DNA of 64,000 bases, from the NCBI GenBank assembly GCA_965202585.1, contig OZ241826.1, positions 70,804,001-70,868,000 on the forward strand. Direction: 5' to 3'. Position numbers: made by a program. Of the stretch, positions 23,801-29,800 are shown in pieces (within the stretch, counting starts at the first letter, position 1; each line of letters starts with the position of its first letter). This DNA is from Thalia democratica (lineage: Eukaryota).

Positions 23801-26800
23801 TTCTAAGAAGAATTAAATTAATGCTTTGTTTTTTATTTATCAGAAGTCTAAAAAATATTTTTGTCTTTAAAATATGTTTTTAAAAGCTTACAAACAAAAA
23901 CTTTACTTTGATAGTAGCAAAATTGGTCCATTAAAAAAAAATTCTCAATTTAAAGACAAGTACTAAACTTTTATCATAACAAAAATCACAAAAAACGAAA
24001 AATTTATAACAAAATATAGTTAGCTTTTCTAATACAAGTAAAAAACTCTAAACAACATTAAATTATACTCAGCAAACTCAAATTCATTATTCTTCAACAT
24101 CAGTCAGCAACAATCCTTATCTCCTACTATCTTTGTGTTTAAAATTTTCACAATATTTTACTGCTTTATGAGTAAAGCGCTTAATAAAATTCAATCTACG
24201 ATACACTTTTCAGCGTACAAAGTTGTATTTATTTCAAAAGTACTTTTAATTAAAGGCAGTGAACTAGTTCAAATGTTGTTGAGAACCAAAAACAGTGATA
24301 CCGCGTTCTATTAGCTTGTCTAAAAACCTAGATACCGTTAACAGACTGTCTGCTTCATCGCAGCGAAATTGGTTTTAGCTGCATAAAGTTATCCTTGTAG
24401 AACTTAACAAAAGAGCTCTTTAAAGTATCTATTACATTGATGATGTTTTTTGACTCACTCATAAACAAAACTATTTGAACACAAGATCAATTAATGAAGT
24501 ATATAATTCATGAGTATATTGAATTAATCAAGACTTATTCAGTAAATATCTTTTAAAAAACTTAGTCCAAAAACTTTATATTAAATTTACATAAGTAATG
24601 TATGAAAGTTATTGTATGTTGAAATTTATTTTGACGCGTTTTCAATAGAAATAAGTTAAACTGCTATACAGAGCTAGCAGTGTCAGCCAAACAGCCTGCT
24701 GTTCTAACTGCTTTACTTTACGAAAGAATCGATTTTTGAACATATCTTAAAATTCGTTACTTATTAAATACTATTACTGATACTATACACTGCAATACTT
24801 TACTAGATTTTGTTCTAATTAAAAAACAATGTGATAAATTTTAAACTTGTAATAAGTTTAGCAATAATGTATTATACATTTTTATTAACTAAGGTAATTT
24901 AAGACGTATCATTATTCTTCTTAAAATGAAAATATTTTATTATTTTATAATATCAGGTTCAAACTTATTATTTATCGTAATAACGTACACAGTTGCTAAG
25001 TAACAATAATTGAAATTTTAACACAAAGTTAAGTTTGATCGTTTTTAGGTTCATATTTTAACTTTCAGAAAAGCATGCGTGATTTAAAATACAAAATTCT
25101 AGGACTGTTAATCCTGAGCTCCGGCCTTTTGGTCGCTGCAAACGAGAACTCAAAGAAGGACGACATCCAAGGAAGAATATACGGAGGCAGCGACGTGAGG
25201 CCAGGTGATTTCCCTTTTTTCGGCTCGTTGGCCATAAAAGACTTAAAGTCCATAAACGAAGTCAAAATGTGCGGTTGCACCATTCTCGGCAGAAAGTGGG
25301 TCGCCTCGGTCACTTCATGCACCAAAGACTATCCCGCTGAACAAATTTACGTGTACGCAGGGTATCCCACAACAACAATTACGAACTACAATCAGAACAT
25401 CAGAGCCAGAGCGAAGTACGAGCATCCCGACTACGAACCCAACCTCAACGACATCGTTCTCGTAGAGCTCAAAAAAGATTTGGTCTACAGCAACCTGGTG
25501 CTGCCCATCCAGTTGCCTCTGAACGACAGAGACGTGGCTCCCGTCAAAACCGAGTGCGCCATCATGGGATATGGAGAGACCGAGGACGACCCGATCACGA
25601 CGGTCCACAGGCCGATGAAGCAGGGAACCGTGTACGTCGTCCCGAAGGTGGACTGCCAGTTCACGTACGGCAACATCATCAAAGACTCGCACGTCTGCGC
25701 CAACCACCCGACCCAGATCACCGGAATCTGCAAGGGGGACGCCGGTTCGCCGCTGGCCTGCTTCGACGACTCCAAGCAGGACTGGGTGCTGAGAGGGGTG
25801 GCCAGCTTCGGAACTTCGGTGTGCGGCGTCGCCTCCGCCCCCGAGGTCTTCACGAGGATCTCGCAATACGTCAAGTGGATCAGGGAAAAGGTGATAGAGT
25901 GCAACCTGCCACCGAAGCTGCCTCCGAACGTCTTCACGAACGCGACGCACCACCACGAAGGAAACTTCAAGGTGGGCGAGAAGATCCAGCTGTTCTGCGA
26001 GGAAGGGTATGAACTGAAGAAGGGAGCAACCGAGTCAACGTGCCAGATGGGCGGCGTCTTCGACAAAATCGACACGGAATGTAGGAAAAAGTCCATATAC
26101 GGCGAGTGGAAGATCGGAGAGTGCAGCGTGACGTGCGGAGAAGGAACCAGGATGGACACGAGGGAGTGCCTGGAAGGGGTTTGCCCTAAACACCTGTACG
26201 TGGTTTCCCCCTGCTGGCTGAAGTCTTGCTCCGACGGCAACAACGTTTGCGAGGACCTCAAGTGCTCCCATTTTGCATCGTGCGAGAAGTTCTTCGACGA
26301 GGAAAACTTCAACTGTCACTGCATACCCGGGTTCATCGGCAACGGCAAAACTTGCACGAGGAAGCCTGTGGAAGAAGAAGAGGAACCGGAAACAGAAGGT
26401 GAGTGTAAAAGAAATTAATTTATTTAAATTGTAAAGAAGAGCTAATACCAGGAGTAATATTCTGGAATTTTTATTAAAAACCTAAAAAGAAACAAGTTTC
26501 AAGATCCATTTGCGTTAAAGTTATTAAAAAAATATTAAAATCGGTCATAACAAAGTTTAGGTAAGGCATCAAAAAAACCTGAAAAAGATTTACTTTATTT
26601 AATTAAACCGAAAAATATACTATGCTGCACAAACTGCATAGTGGTATATATTTATTATGTTATTATACAAACAAACTGTAAAAGGTTATTTGACAATGTT
26701 ATTTTATTAACAACTTTATTATACTACACACCGTTTAAAATAATTCTAAGTAAACTTAATAATTTTTTAATTAACAAAAGTATCCCAGTAAAACAAAATG

Positions 26801-29800
26801 ACAAGGTTAAATAAAACAAACCAAAATTCCGAGTTTCCAACAAGAAAGAATTTAACAATTTTTTTTTAATAAGTAAGTTTTTTCTTTTTACAACATAAAG
26901 CTTGTAATAGCTTGTAATAATTTTACTTAAAAACAGTATTTTTCAACAAGAAAATTTAATTAGAGTTCATTTGATTGCTCTTACTTAAAATGTACAGTCA
27001 TGTTTTAAAGTTAGACAATACTAAGATTGTGATAAAACGTAACTTGGTATACAAATAAAAGTATTGATTAGCTAGGCCTGTTTATGTTTTAATGCATAAA
27101 TGTAGATGGTAAAACAAAAATTAATAATAAAACTAACAAAAAAGTCCAATTAAATTAGTAATTAAAGTTTTGTAAGTTTTTAGGCGTAGGGATCAACCAG
27201 AACTATTGTTATTTAAAATTTGAAATTCCTTTTTTCTAAAAATTGTCAAAATGAATGGAAAATTTTACGAAAATAAATACTTGTAGTTGAATTATGTTCT
27301 CAATTATTTATTATGCTTTTGTACATGTTATACTTATTTTTTTATGTAGTTTTTACTTTTTACCTACAATAATTCATTATTAGTAATAAAACGATTAGTA
27401 TAGAAAAGAAAGCTAGAATAAGATATATTTAATCTAATATAAGGTTTTATCACAAAATGATTTATAATGAAATAAAAACAACTCGCATCTAAACTACAGC
27501 CTTACTTAAAAAAAAACTTTGTCTAAAGTAAACACCATTTTTCCAATCCTAAATCAATTTACTACACTTAAACTTTCAGAAGTACCCGTATACACGGACT
27601 GGACACTTGGCAGGTGCAGGGGCAGGTGCGGAACCGGAAAGAGAACGGACACTAGACAGTGCGTGAAAGGCAACTGCGTGGAGGCGATCTTCAGGCTGGT
27701 CGACTGCAGGCTGCCCAATCCGTGCCCGGAAAACAACCACGACGAGTGCAAGAAGCACTCACTGGACTGCCACAAGGAGGCCAGGTGCGTGAAGCTGGAG
27801 AAGGAGCTGAGTTTCGTGTGCGAGTGCGTTGACGGGTTTTTTGGCAACGGGAAAATTTGCGGTTTGAACGGCGGCCCGAAGCTTGGTGTGAACAAATTTG
27901 TGTTTGTTTTGGTGGCAGCTTACTTTTTGTTCTAAAAAATGCTGCGTCTGACTGGAGATGAAATATATAAAGAAATAAATAAAGCGTAATTAAAAAAAAC
28001 TATTTGGAATTTTTGTTCAAAACTTATATTAAGATTTAAAACATTCAAAAGAGATAAAAAAATTATCGTATTGAAGTTAATAAAAAAGTTCTAATAAAAG
28101 AAATTTTAAACCAAGGCTTAACTTTAAAGCAATATGAGTTTTATAACTTGATTAAAATTCAAAAATGAAGTTTTAAATTATTTCATAGACGCCAGAGGGC
28201 AAAAACGGTTACGGCTGATAATAAATAAAAAAACCAAAAACTTATGTGACTCAGAAACTTAGTTTTGTTAGTCTAACTGGTTACGTTTGTTATATATGTT
28301 ACCTATTTTTTTTAATACTAAAAAAGAAAAAAAAAAATTCAAGCTGTATTTGACTATTTTTACTGTAAACTACATATATTTAGTCTACCAAGTTTGGCAA
28401 AGGTTAAAAATACTAATATACTTAGAGTACACCTTAATCTAAAACATAGCTGTTGGTTAAATAATTTCATCAAAAAAGTTAAAGTTTAGAAAATTAGAAT
28501 ACATAATCTTCGTGATTCAGATAAAATAGCTTTGATTAAAAAGAATTAATTTAGCCAGAATTAAAAATGATTGAACATTTGTATTAATTCTATACTCTAC
28601 CCAAGTACTTAGTTTTGGTTTGAAAAACGATGACAAAGTGTGTTTAGCTTAACTTGATCACTTTTCTTCCTCATTATAATTTTTTAATGTGATTTATGTC
28701 TAAAAAAACAAACATTTTTTAATAACAATCGTTAAAGCAAACTCTTATCTAAATCTTAAATTTTAAGCTGTTATTTCTTTACATTAGAAATAGATACTTT
28801 GTGTTAAGAAAGATGGTACTAAAGTGCTATTATATATATTCTCTAAACTAAAGTCTACTTTAATTCTTGTTGTTCTATATGATTTTACAATCACAAAAAA
28901 AAAAAAGAAATAAATAAAAAAAACATATTCAATTCTATGTAATTTTTATAATTTGTTGCTAAGTATTACAAAGCTGTGTTGAAGAAAACAAGCTAGTAAA
29001 TTTTTTTTCAAAGTTACATGCCTAAAATTACAAATGCATTTTTTCTTCTCCTTATGTTTGCTATCTCTGAACTTCAACACCTTCGCGCTTGCAAAAAAAA
29101 TCAATCTCACCGGAAGAATATTCAACGGGAAGGACGCGCCACCGGGAAAATGGCCTTTTTACAGCCTGCTGGTCATCAGGGCGGTCGAGGGCGCCGACGA
29201 AAGAAGTGCTTGCGGGTGCGTTGTCATCGCAACGAAGTGGATCGTGTCCGCGGCCCACTGCACCGTCGGCCACCCGGCTGACACTCTGTTCGTCCACGCA
29301 GGCTTCCCCACATCGATGATTCTGAATTACGAACAGAGATCGGGAGTGAAGGCAAAACACGAGCATCCGGAATTCAACTCCTTTTACGTTCTGAACGACA
29401 TCGTGCTGCTAGAACTGAAAAACGAATTAAAATATGGTCCTTTAGTGCGGCCGATTTCGCTGCCGGAGAACAAGGTTCCGAAGGTTTCCGAGGGAAAAGA
29501 GTGCAAGATCGTGGGTTTCGGCAAGACGGGAGGTGCGGAGACGCTGCAGGAAAGAAAGCTTCAGGAGGGAGACGTGACTGTCATATCCAAGTTCGACTGC
29601 CTGTTCGCCTACGGTCACATCATCAGGGACTCAAACATCTGTGCCAACCACCCGACCGCGGCCACCGGGTCGTGCAAAGGGGATTCGGGAGGACCGCTGG
29701 CCTGCCTCGATGACAGCAGAAACGAATATGTTCTCAGAGGAGTGACAAGCTTCGGTGCCACCCATTGCGGTGACAATACAACTCCGGAAGTTTGGTCGAG

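What the first reader, a model, noticed from the sequence alone, without database searches (positions are those of the whole stretch)
25075..27935. Conserved pseudoprotease (P3) embedded in the cluster
Seen: His57 is replaced by Ser (TCA, 25315-25317) and Ser195 by Ala (GCC, 25741-25743), with G197S. The ORF, all disulfide cysteines, Asp102, Asp194, Glu226, the IQGR|IYGG activation site, all five accessory modules and the GPI-like tail are intact, and there is a unique acidic linker (EEEEEPETEE). Established: non-catalytic serine protease homologs act as cofactors or regulators, e.g. arthropod PPAF-II in prophenoloxidase activation, HGF, haptoglobin, protein Z and azurocidin. Inference: P3 is a cleavage-activated cofactor, decoy or binding partner of its active neighbours rather than a decaying pseudogene.
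Basis: partly seen in the sequence, partly recalled or inferred. Interest (0 to 1): 0.68.

Follow-up and report, generated by a model that had tools for sequence, protein, structure and literature searches.

The report
Conserved dead protease in tunicate-like cluster
One of five neighbouring cell-surface protease genes lost its catalytic residues long ago yet has been kept intact by selection in related species, so it is a working non-enzymatic protease look-alike, which is a common kind of protein.

Summary
P3 is a two-exon gene (25075-26398, 27580-27935). Its S1 protease domain has Ser (TCA 25315-17) in place of His57, Ala (GCC 25741-43) in place of Ser195, and G197S. Asp102, Asp194, Glu226, the IQGR|IYGG site and four canonical disulfides are intact.

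Two relatives from other organisms (83% and 68% identical) carry the same losses (S/A and T/T), so the loss is old and not private.

No ortholog DNA was available, so dN/dS could not be computed. Five proxies indicate purifying selection:
- The frame stays open (13 of 1000 and 1 of 1000 neutral simulations do so).
- Replacements avoid conserved sites (10/66 against 67/162).
- Replacements are conservative.
- P3 evolves only about 1.4-1.5 times faster than its active sister P1.
- GC3 is 0.74 beside an intron of 0.23 GC.

The propeptide is nearly invariant (11/12).

"Not a decaying pseudogene" is well supported. "Cleavage-primed" is indirectly supported. "Cofactor or decoy of its neighbours" is untested, and so is expression.

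Dead S1 homologues are common, so this is a new member of a known kind. The domain order is unusual, and a second, independent triad loss occurs in the wider family.

The parts
25075..26398 (+). P3 exon 1 (1324 nt, ends in phase 1; ATG at 25075)
   Evidence: Open frame and GT donor at 26399. The translation matches Pfam Trypsin, Sushi and EGF_3.
25075..25140 (+). Signal peptide, residues 1-22 (inferred)
   Evidence: Hydrophobic core ILGLLILSSGLLVAA. It is modelled as helix 2-23 at low confidence. No signal-peptide predictor was run.
25141..25176 (+). Propeptide NENSKKDDIQGR, with the activation cleavage site after Arg34 (AGA 25174-76), before Ile35 (ATA 25177-79)
   Evidence: 11/12 identical in each of the two orthologues, against 9/12 and 5/12 in the P1 clade. 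R/K15 and I16 are present in all 18 family members compared.
25177..25881 (+). S1A (chymotrypsin-fold) protease-like domain, residues 35-269
   Evidence: Pfam PF00089 E 2.7e-38. PDB best match is plasma kallikrein 5gvt_A, E 4.7e-31. The AF2 model matches 5gvt_A with TM 0.82 on the target.
25222..25224 (+). GGC = Gly50, where both P3 orthologues and the P1 clade have Cys
   Evidence: Alignment A1 column 70. In 1 of 26 Cys columns one of the three P3-clade sequences lacks the Cys, against 0 of 26 in the P1 clade.
25315..25317 (+). TCA = Ser at catalytic His57
   Evidence: Orthologues have Ser and Thr. All 13 active members have His.
25450..25452 (+). GAC = Asp102, retained
25738..25749 (+). GAC GCC GGT TCG = Asp194, Ala at Ser195, Gly196, Ser at Gly197
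   Evidence: Orthologues have A and T at 195 and S at 197.
25843..25845 (+). GAG = Glu226 (S1 pocket), with Gly189 and Gly216 as in the active paralogues P1, P4 and P5
   Evidence: table. The numbering comes from the kallikrein alignment and from my own count.
25900..26085 (+). Sushi/CCP module (Cys276, 308, 323, 336)
   Evidence: Pfam PF00084, 26.4 bits against cut-off 20.7. Coordinates.
26095..26238 (+). First TSP1-like module (six Cys)
   Evidence: No Pfam hit in P3 itself at E<=0.01. It aligns to the TSP_1 hits of P1 (24.3 bits) and P5 (20.7 bits). Orthologues score 18.6 and 19.8 bits.
26248..26355 (+). First EGF-like module (six Cys)
   Evidence: Pfam EGF_3, 19.8 bits, below cut-off 28.5. 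All Cys are conserved in alignment A1.
26374..26398 (+). Acidic linker EEEEPETE plus the first base of the junction-spanning Glu codon
   Evidence: pLDDT is below 50. It is partly shared with P0001 only.
26399..27579 (+). Intron (GT...AG, 1181 nt, GC 0.227)
   Evidence: The same junction is spliced out in the P5 orthologue P0006.
27580..27935 (+). P3 exon 2 (356 nt including the TAA stop at 27933-35)
   Evidence: Orthologous fragment P0155 is 89% identical over 85 residues through to the C-terminal end of the tail.
27582..27725 (+). Second TSP1-like module (six Cys, degenerate)
   Evidence: Alignment A3 with the exon 2 of P1, P4 and P5. The Atlas gives a lead to TSP_1 only (score 0.77). No Pfam hit.
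27735..27860 (+). Second EGF-like module
   Evidence: Pfam EGF_3, 34.8 bits against cut-off 28.5, E 2e-08.
27861..27932 (+). C-terminal GPI-signal-like tail GLNGGPKLGVNKFVFVLVAAYFLF
   Evidence: Small residues NGG, a spacer, then a 12-residue hydrophobic end with no cytoplasmic tail; mean Kyte-Doolittle 2.81. It is conserved in P0155. Not tested with a predictor.

Best explanation
P3 is a real, selectively maintained gene for a non-catalytic S1A protease homologue (a pseudoprotease).

Origin (shown): it arose by duplication of an active protease, and its sister is P1. It lost the catalytic His and Ser before at least two other related organisms split off. Since then the whole reading frame has been kept: signal peptide, propeptide, fold, S1-pocket residues, five Cys-rich modules and the hydrophobic tail.

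Mechanism (inferred):
1. It enters the secretory pathway and is tethered to the cell surface by a GPI anchor, like its four active neighbours.
2. A trypsin-like enzyme, plausibly one of the neighbours, cuts it after Arg34.
3. The new Ile16 N-terminus pairs with Asp194 and orders the substrate-binding cleft.
4. The cleft then binds but cannot cut. P3 therefore acts as a cleavage-primed binding module in the same surface proteolytic system. It could be a cofactor that helps a partner zymogen, or a decoy for substrates or inhibitors.

My confidence that it is a maintained pseudoprotease is about 0.9. My confidence in the cleavage-primed binder role within the neighbours' system is about 0.4. The figure below is for the whole statement.
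For: Triad loss shared with orthologues:
- Exon 1 found 6 proteins among 2363 candidates.
- P0001 (83% identical) has Ser/Ala and P0002 (68%) has Thr/Thr at positions 57/195, and both have G197S.
- The three form a clade (100/100) sister to the active P1 clade (97/95).

Constraint:
- In neutral simulations of exon 1 the frame stayed open in 13 of 1000 runs at 83% identity and in 1 of 1000 at 68%. With AT-biased mutation the figures were 4 and 0 of 1000.
- Within the P3 clade, sites conserved in 10 other active members varied at 10 of 66 positions, against 67 of 162 elsewhere (Fisher p 1.1e-4). The active P1 clade gives 5/66 against 53/162.
- Replacements are conservative: mean BLOSUM62 is 0.25 and 0.08, against a neutral -0.48 (0 and 1 of 5000 draws reach the observed means). 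P1 gives 0.21 and -0.02.
- The P3/P1 distance ratio in the protease-like domain is 1.51 (0.89-2.71) and 1.40 (1.00-1.97).
- Tajima relative-rate counts are 25/27, 32/20 and 33/23, none significant.
- GC3 is 0.739 and 0.752 in the two exons, against 0.227 in the gene's own intron and 0.23-0.24 in the flanks.
- The protease-like domain is the best conserved part of P3 (87.1% against 77.6% for the modules).

Activation site and cleft:
- The propeptide is 11/12 identical in both orthologues.
- I16, G193, D194, S214, G189, G216 and E226 are kept.
- Only 12 sites separate the P3 clade from its seven close active relatives. Four of them lie in the active-site motifs: A55V, H57S/T, S195A/T and G197S.

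Exon 2 and tail are conserved in P0155. The fold model has mean pLDDT 74.6 and TM 0.82 to kallikrein.

Precedents:
- Clip-domain protease homologues need cleavage to act (PMC6901238, abstract seen).
- Prostasin is described as a non-enzymatic cofactor for matriptase (title of Friis 2013, seen in the reference list of PMC6331135).
Against: - No dN/dS could be computed. Orthologue DNA was out of reach and paralogue dS is saturated (P1-P3 NG86 dN 0.41, dS 1.04).
- There is no expression evidence for P3. Its orthologues P0001 and P0002 are unspliced genomic reading frames. No spliced P3-type protein was found in the 242-772 aa range. The only spliced hit in that search (P0006) is a P5 orthologue.
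- P3 is the fastest evolving of the five genes (protease domain 87.1% against 91.4 and 91.1; 69.5% against 78.1, 77.0 and 75.0). Its modules diverge up to 3 times faster than P1's.
- The window's copy has lost one family-specific Cys.
- That P0001/P0004/P0011 and P0002/P0003/P0005/P0028 each come from one organism is assumed from the two tiers of identity. It is not known.
- GPI anchoring, cleavage, and any binding to a neighbour, substrate or inhibitor are untested.
- Ile/Leu190 beside Glu226 could shield the pocket's charge (PMC7914634 passages), so the ligand type is uncertain.
Confidence: 0.6

Rival explanations
1. P3 is a functional surface or matrix adhesion protein. Its Sushi, TSP1 and EGF modules do the work, and the dead protease domain is only a folded scaffold with no link to the neighbours' proteolysis.
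For: - The modules and all their cysteines are intact.
- TSP1, CCP and EGF modules are typical extracellular-matrix modules. [quoted passage not shown]
- No evidence of binding to a neighbour exists.
Against: - The protease-like domain is more conserved than the modules (87.1% against 77.6%, and 69.5% against 66.2%).
- The propeptide and cleavage site are nearly invariant.
- The cleft residues are kept.
- The modules are the fastest-changing part (ratio 3.01 against P1).
Confidence: 0.22
2. P3 is a decaying pseudogene, or the triad loss is recent and private to this genome.
For: - Two of three catalytic residues are gone.
- One family-specific Cys is lost in this copy.
- No expression data are available.
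- P3 is the fastest-evolving member.
Against: - Both orthologues share the loss.
- The frame stays open in at most 13 of 1000 neutral simulations.
- The site pattern and the conservative replacements match those of the active sister.
- GC3 is 0.74 beside an intron of 0.23 GC.
- Splice sites are canonical.
Confidence: 0.03
3. P3 is still a peptidase that uses unconventional residues, for example Ser57, Ser197 or, in the orthologue, Thr195.
For: - Asp102, the oxyanion-hole Gly193 and the S1 pocket are kept.
- Ser197 is fixed in both independent dead lineages.
Against: - No His or other general base stands at position 57 (Ser, Ser, Thr).
- The residue at 195 varies between orthologues (Ala, Ala, Thr), which a nucleophile would not do.
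- Ser at 197 also occurs in 9 of 249 domains that keep Ser195, so it is simply tolerated.
Confidence: 0.03
4. P3 is specifically an inhibitor sink. Its formed but dead cleft soaks up canonical (Kunitz- or Kazal-type) inhibitors and so protects the active neighbours.
For: - The cleft residues are kept.
- Solved structures show proteases with Ser195 changed to Ala still bound to their inhibitors, for example tPA-S195A with PAI-1 (5brr, listed).
Against: No inhibitor gene was identified in the window, and none was looked for systematically. Nothing was tested. This is a sub-case of the best explanation rather than an alternative to it.
Confidence: 0.12

Closest known systems
GPI-anchored serine proteases of the prostasin/testisin type, including prostasin's non-enzymatic role with matriptase
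   Same: Shared layout: signal peptide, short propeptide cut after Arg, protease domain at the N-terminus, hydrophobic C-terminal anchor signal. Prostasin chains are among the PDB matches (3dfj_A E 2.6e-23; 3e0n_B and 3gym_A). A beetle survey reports a protease homologue (SerPH43) with such a tail (PMC11172050 passage). Prostasin is described as a non-enzymatic cofactor (title only).
   Different: P3 has no His57 or Ser195. It carries five extra modules (Sushi, TSP1, EGF, TSP1, EGF) between domain and tail. Prostasin is not its best match (kallikrein is), so no orthology is implied.
Clip-domain serine protease homologues of arthropods (PPAF-II, CLIPA proteins)
   Same: These are dead S1 domains that are cut at an activation site and then act as cofactors or regulators of active relatives (PMC6901238, abstract seen).
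   Different: P3 shows no clip domain in Pfam at E<=0.01. In clip proteins the protease-like domain is C-terminal. They are soluble haemolymph proteins and belong to a different phylum.
Haptoglobin
   Same: CCP/Sushi plus a protease-like domain without the triad. The precursor is cleaved into two chains, and the dead domain binds a ligand (PMC6494993 passages). A "haptoglobin-like" cluster is the second Atlas look-alike (score 0.90, a lead only).
   Different: In haptoglobin the CCP lies N-terminal and stays disulfide-linked. P3's Sushi is C-terminal, its propeptide has no Cys, and it is membrane-tethered.
HGF/MSP, protein Z, azurocidin, scabies-mite inactivated protease paralogues (recalled from memory; only the title of the Reynolds and Fischer 2015 review was seen)
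   Same: Dead S1 domains used as binding modules. HGF needs cleavage at the activation site.
   Different: Other accessory domains (kringles, Gla/EGF, none), no anchor, and no close sequence relation shown here.
The window's own active paralogues P1, P2, P4, P5 and their relatives
   Same: P1 and P5 share the architecture and the intron position. Identity to P1 is 50% in exon 1, and the S1-pocket residues are the same.
   Different: Only 12 clade-specific sites differ in the protease domain, four of them in the active-site motifs. P3 has the acidic linker, and an NAT/NST sequon with HHH/NHH at the start of the Sushi module.

Membership tests
S1A chymotrypsin-fold family (Pfam PF00089) | Sequence and fold of the two-barrel protease domain | tested here: met
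   Pfam E 2.7e-38, full profile 1-220. PDB phmmer E 4.7e-31. Model TM 0.82 to 5gvt_A.
S1A chymotrypsin-fold family (active peptidases) | Catalytic triad His57, Asp102, Ser195 | tested here: not met
   Ser, Asp, Ala. P3 is a non-peptidase homologue of the family.
S1A zymogen-type members | Activation site R/K15|I16, with Asp194 to receive the new N-terminus | tested here: met
   IQGR|IYGG and GDAGSP. Both are invariant in the P3 clade. Actual cleavage is not testable here.
Clip-domain serine protease homologues | N-terminal clip domain(s) followed by a C-terminal protease-like domain | tested here: not met
   No clip domain in Pfam at E<=0.01. The protease-like domain directly follows the propeptide.
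GPI-anchored serine proteases (prostasin/testisin type) | C-terminal GPI attachment signal | tested here: inconclusive
   NGG, a 7-residue spacer, a 12-residue hydrophobic end, no cytoplasmic tail. It is conserved in P0155. No predictor or experiment was available.
GPI-anchored serine proteases (prostasin/testisin type) | Active triad, and a protease domain followed directly by the anchor signal | tested here: not met
   The triad is lost. Five modules lie between domain and tail.
Haptoglobin / complement-type CCP proteases | CCP modules N-terminal to the protease(-like) domain, chains held by a disulfide after cleavage | tested here: not met
   The Sushi module is C-terminal (residues 276-337). 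There is no Cys in the propeptide.
Plasminogen-related growth factors (HGF/MSP) | Kringle domains before the dead protease domain | tested here: not met
   No Kringle hit in Pfam.
Maintained pseudoenzyme, as opposed to pseudogene | Purifying selection after loss of the catalytic residues | tested here: met
   Protein-level and composition proxies only. Codon-level dN/dS was not testable without orthologue DNA.
Maintained pseudoenzyme, as opposed to pseudogene | Expression as RNA and protein | not testable with these tools
   No transcript data. No spliced P3-type hit.

The most novel reading that the evidence does not exclude
This family places the protease first, followed by TSP1/EGF modules and a GPI-type tail. 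It is so far seen only in unnamed environmental or genomic records and in this probably tunicate genome. The family has produced a dead paralogue twice independently, and each time the same GDxGSP loop became fixed. The novel reading is that a cleavage-gated dead subunit is a recurrently selected, built-in regulator of these surface protease clusters, comparable to catalytically dead prostasin acting on matriptase. The tunicate cluster would then be a natural model of non-enzymatic zymogen activation.
Probability: 0.15. Interest if true: 0.55.

Novelty: new member of a known kind. Interest (0 to 1): 0.33.

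Why it matters
Dead protease homologues are frequent. A beetle survey counts 125 sequences lacking a conserved triad among 269 serine peptidases (PMC11172050, abstract start seen). The existence of P3 is therefore not surprising.

Its value is as a clean case:
- An active sister gene lies about 4.6 kb away in the same cluster (P1 start 20479, P3 start 25075).
- Only 12 clade-specific changes separate the two.
- The activation site is preserved.
- A second, independent loss occurs in the same family.

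This makes the question [quoted passage not shown] directly testable in a chordate relative. It also guards annotation against calling the gene either an active protease or a pseudogene.

Tried and rejected
- **Paralogue dN/dS.** Synonymous sites are saturated (dS 1.04 to above 3, or undefined), YN00 failed, and the omega values (0.13-0.43) are not trustworthy.
- **Bootstrap of crown branch lengths.** The script crashed because no usable branch-length ratios came out of the bootstrap trees. It was replaced by a column bootstrap of distances.
- **Complex prediction.** The P3 protease-like domain (35-272) was run with the P1 protease domain (35-270). The verdict was "no answer", score 0.00 in both runs, controls not folded, alignments not used. 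This is no evidence either way.
- **One origin for all five dead sequences.** Rejected: AU p 0.0009, log-likelihood 31.2 lower.
- **G197S as a signature of dead domains.** Weak. Among 148 representative hits, Ser at 197 occurs in 7 of 57 motifs without Ser195, and two of those seven are this family's own P0014 and P0016. It occurs in 9 of 249 motifs with Ser195.
- **A cationic, azurocidin-like surface.** Not seen: pI 5.8, net charge -3.
- **Other frames and the opposite strand of exon 1.** ORFs of 223, 239 and 276 aa gave 0 Pfam families.
- **RNA genes.** 0 Rfam matches and 0 tRNAs in the window.
- **Poly(A) signal.** AATAAA lies 39 nt after the stop. It has no weight in sequence this AT-rich.
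- **Literature for this architecture.** Two searches returned 3 papers and 5 papers. None describes this family.
- **Joined exons.** The two exons were never joined. Every search, fold and script used them separately, so no whole-protein search or fold exists.

Full report
**Setting.** The window is AT-rich (GC 0.23-0.31 outside genes). It holds five trypsin-family genes between about 18.2 and 34.8 kb:
- P1: 19145-20479, minus strand, with a second exon near 18246-18581.
- P2: 22196-23302, minus strand.
- P3: the gene under study.
- P4: 29034-29864, plus an exon near 30690-31022.
- P5: 31765-33084, plus an exon near 34443-34772.

A beta-arrestin gene lies on the minus strand at about 39009-46702. 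One of its exons found 901 proteins among 920 candidates. The three best hits are unnamed (95, 89 and 89% identical). The best named hits are ascidians (Phallusia mammillata 85%, Clavelina lepadiformis 85%, Ciona savignyi 84%), closely followed by fishes at 74-84%. I therefore take the window for a chordate, probably a tunicate. This is a lead and is not settled. It is not human.

**How the gene was handled.** Exon 1 (window:25075-26397) and exon 2 (window:27582-27932) were always searched, aligned and folded separately. The joined protein was never made. No result here therefore refers to the whole 559-residue product.

**The observation.** It holds.
- The frame from ATG 25075 runs to a GTGAGT donor at 26399.
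- After a 1181-nt intron with GC 0.227, a CTTTCAG acceptor opens exon 2 at 27580.
- The lengths 1324 + 356 nt keep the frame to the TAA at 27933-35.
- Pfam gives Trypsin at E 2.7e-38 over residues 35-269.
- In alignment with the four neighbours, with six relatives, and with plasma kallikrein 5gvt_A, Ser81 (TCA 25315-17) stands at His57, Ala223 (GCC 25741-43) at Ser195, and Ser225 (TCG 25747-49) at Gly197.
- Asp102, Gly193, Asp194, Ser214, Gly216 and Glu226 are kept.

A family-specific Cys is Gly50 in this copy. Only two of the five modules pass Pfam's cut-offs in P3 itself. The acidic linker is partly shared with the nearer orthologue. The GPI reading rests on anatomy alone.

**Relatives.** Exon 1 found only 6 proteins among 2363 candidates in the 5.8-billion-protein set. 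None is identical, so this genome's own proteins are not in the set.
- P0001 (83%) and P0002 (68%) group with P3 (100/100).
- P0004 and P0003 group with P1.
- P0005 and P0006 group with P5.
- From the HMMER scan of 1.84 billion representatives (26122 hits at E<=0.001, 136 at E<=1e-30), P0011 groups with P4 and P0028 with P2.
- P3 and P1 are sister clades (97/95).

P0001 has Ser/Ala and P0002 has Thr/Thr at positions 57/195, and both have Ser197. The loss therefore predates the split of these lineages. The two dead positions have since kept drifting, as expected of residues that no longer matter.

P0001 and P0002 read on into intron-like sequence and so are genomic reading frames, not transcripts. 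P0006 (a P5 orthologue) is spliced at the homologous junction, which supports the two-exon model. Exon 2 found one protein among 3 candidates: P0155, 85 aa and 89% identical, including the tail.

**Is it under selection?** True dN/dS could not be had (see Tried and rejected). Five proxies agree.
1. *Open frame.* In neutral simulations of exon 1 the frame stayed open in 13 of 1000 runs at 83% identity and in 1 of 1000 at 68%. With AT-biased mutation the figures were 4 and 0 of 1000. Indels were ignored, which is conservative.
2. *Site pattern.* Within the P3 clade, hence after the loss, sites that are at least 90% conserved in ten other active members varied at 10 of 66 positions, against 67 of 162 elsewhere (p 1.1e-4). 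This is the same pattern as in active P1 (5 of 66 against 53 of 162).
3. *Conservative replacements.* Mean BLOSUM62 is 0.25 over 73 replacements and 0.08 over 142, like P1 (0.21 and -0.02). The single-step neutral spectrum gives -0.48, and 0 and 1 of 5000 draws reach the observed means.
4. *Rate.* P3 evolves only 1.51 (0.89-2.71) and 1.40 (1.00-1.97) times as fast as P1 in the protease-like domain. Relative-rate counts against three outgroups are not significant. This comparison assumes that the two tiers of identity reflect two other organisms: a near tier of 87.1, 91.4 and 91.1%, and a far tier of 69.5, 78.1, 77.0 and 75.0%. I could not verify that assumption.
5. *Codon composition.* GC3 is 0.739 and 0.752, the highest of the five genes, beside an intron of 0.227 and flanks of 0.23-0.24. 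An untranslated relic of this age should have drifted towards the local composition.

Against full constraint: P3 is the fastest of the five, its modules diverge up to 3.0 (1.71-6.43) times faster than P1's, and one Cys is lost in this copy.

**What is conserved tells how it may work.**
- The propeptide NENSKKDDIQGR is 11/12 identical in each orthologue, while P1's is 9/12 and 5/12.
- Ile16 and Asp194 are invariant in all 18 family members compared. By textbook zymogen activation, these form the salt bridge that orders the cleft.
- Gly189, Gly216 and Glu226 match the active neighbours.
- A trypsin with the charge moved from 189 to 226 keeps cleavage after basic residues. Residues 190 and 216 can shield that charge (PMC7914634 passages). 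P3 has Ile/Leu at 190, so its ligand preference is open.
- Only 12 sites separate the P3 clade from seven close active relatives. Four of them lie in the active-site motifs (A55V, H57S/T, S195A/T, G197S).
- The AF2 model of the exon-1 product has mean pLDDT 74.6 and pTM 0.62, built from 18 sequences. It has a chymotrypsin fold (TM 0.82 to 5gvt_A). The low-confidence stretches are the pro-region, three loops and the acidic linker.

*Shown:* a dead, intact, conserved domain with a conserved cleavage site.
*Inferred:* secretion, GPI anchoring, cleavage by a neighbour, a cleft that binds without cutting, and a role as cofactor or decoy.

**Comparison with the known.** In mode of action P3 is closest to cleavage-dependent dead protease homologues: arthropod clip-domain homologues (PMC6901238, abstract start only), haptoglobin (PMC6494993, two passages), and HGF (recalled from memory). 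In topology it is closest to GPI-anchored proteases of the prostasin type. Prostasin is reported to act non-enzymatically on matriptase; I saw only the title, in a reference list, and the paper is not held. P3 is a member of none of these families, as the membership table shows. It is a non-peptidase homologue within S1A.

The domain order is: protease first, then Sushi, TSP1, EGF, TSP1, EGF and a hydrophobic tail. It did not turn up in two literature searches (3 and 5 papers).

**A second dead lineage.** In the wider family (members without Sushi: P0013, P0019, P0022 and P0025, all active), P0014 and P0016 have also lost the triad.
- P0014 has His57Glu, Asp102Asn and Ser195Glu, and carries a Trefoil insert (Pfam E 1.3e-13).
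- P0016 has Asp102Asn and Ser195Thr.
- Both again have Ser197.

A single origin for all five dead sequences is rejected (AU p 0.0009). Ser197 is only mildly commoner in dead domains generally (7 of 57 against 9 of 249), so I do not make much of that convergence.

**Verdict.** P3 is a real feature, correctly described. It is a maintained pseudoprotease and not a pseudogene. Its role beside the live neighbours is plausible but untested. It is a new member of a known kind, of moderate interest.

Noticed in passing
window 25222-25224: The window's P3 has Gly (GGC) where both orthologues and the whole P1 clade have Cys. The P5 clade has Ser both here and at the CGC position, which hints at an extra disulfide (positions 31-44 in my numbering). 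P4 and P0014 also carry the lone Cys.
   Followed up: partly
window 25015-25074: Just before P3's ATG lie TTTTAG and AACTTTCAG, which look like splice acceptors. The upstream reading of orthologue P0002 suggests the stretch is partly conserved. It could be a trans-splice acceptor (tunicates use spliced leaders; this is recalled from memory). The other four genes show nothing similar in the 60 nt upstream.
   Followed up: partly
window 22196-23302 (minus strand), repeat 22339-22410: P2 has an active protease domain followed by a Ser/Thr-rich, mucin-like tail in place of the Cys-rich modules. The tail contains a 30-bp tandem repeat of 2.4 copies. Its protease domain is very acidic (pI 4.2, net charge -25).
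   Followed up: no
window 29034-29864 and about 30690-31022: P4 is a short form. Its exon 1 ends right after the protease domain, and the next exon holds one TSP1-like module, one EGF and the tail. The Sushi-TSP1-EGF block is missing. Orthologue P0011 ends at the same place.
   Followed up: partly
window 20484-20530: A perfect 15-bp tandem repeat (3.1 copies) lies within a few bases upstream of P1's start codon.
   Followed up: no
window exons against introns, e.g. 25075-26398 against 26399-27579: There is an extreme composition contrast within one gene: exon GC 0.54 and GC3 0.74 against intron GC 0.23. The other cluster genes have GC3 of 0.53-0.73. A tunicate survey reports species with two classes of gene GC content (PMC13746493 passages).
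   Followed up: partly
window about 39009-46702 (minus strand): This is a beta-arrestin gene in at least six exons with introns of several kb. The closest named relatives are ascidians.
   Followed up: partly
proteins P0014 and P0016 (not in the window): This is a second, independent dead lineage in the wider family. P0014 is full length, with a Trefoil domain inserted where P3 has its acidic linker.
   Followed up: partly
window 25957-25974 (residues about 295-300): The P3 clade alone has an N-glycosylation sequon (NAT/NST) followed by HHH or NHH at the start of the Sushi module.
   Followed up: no
window 8334-10533 (plus strand): GC-richer open frames encode Gln/Asn/Ser-rich low-complexity protein. 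This is probably part of another multi-exon gene.
   Followed up: no
protein P0007 (not in the window): This 4066-residue representative has 14 protease-domain matches to P3. Several of those domains have Thr or Gly at position 195.
   Followed up: no
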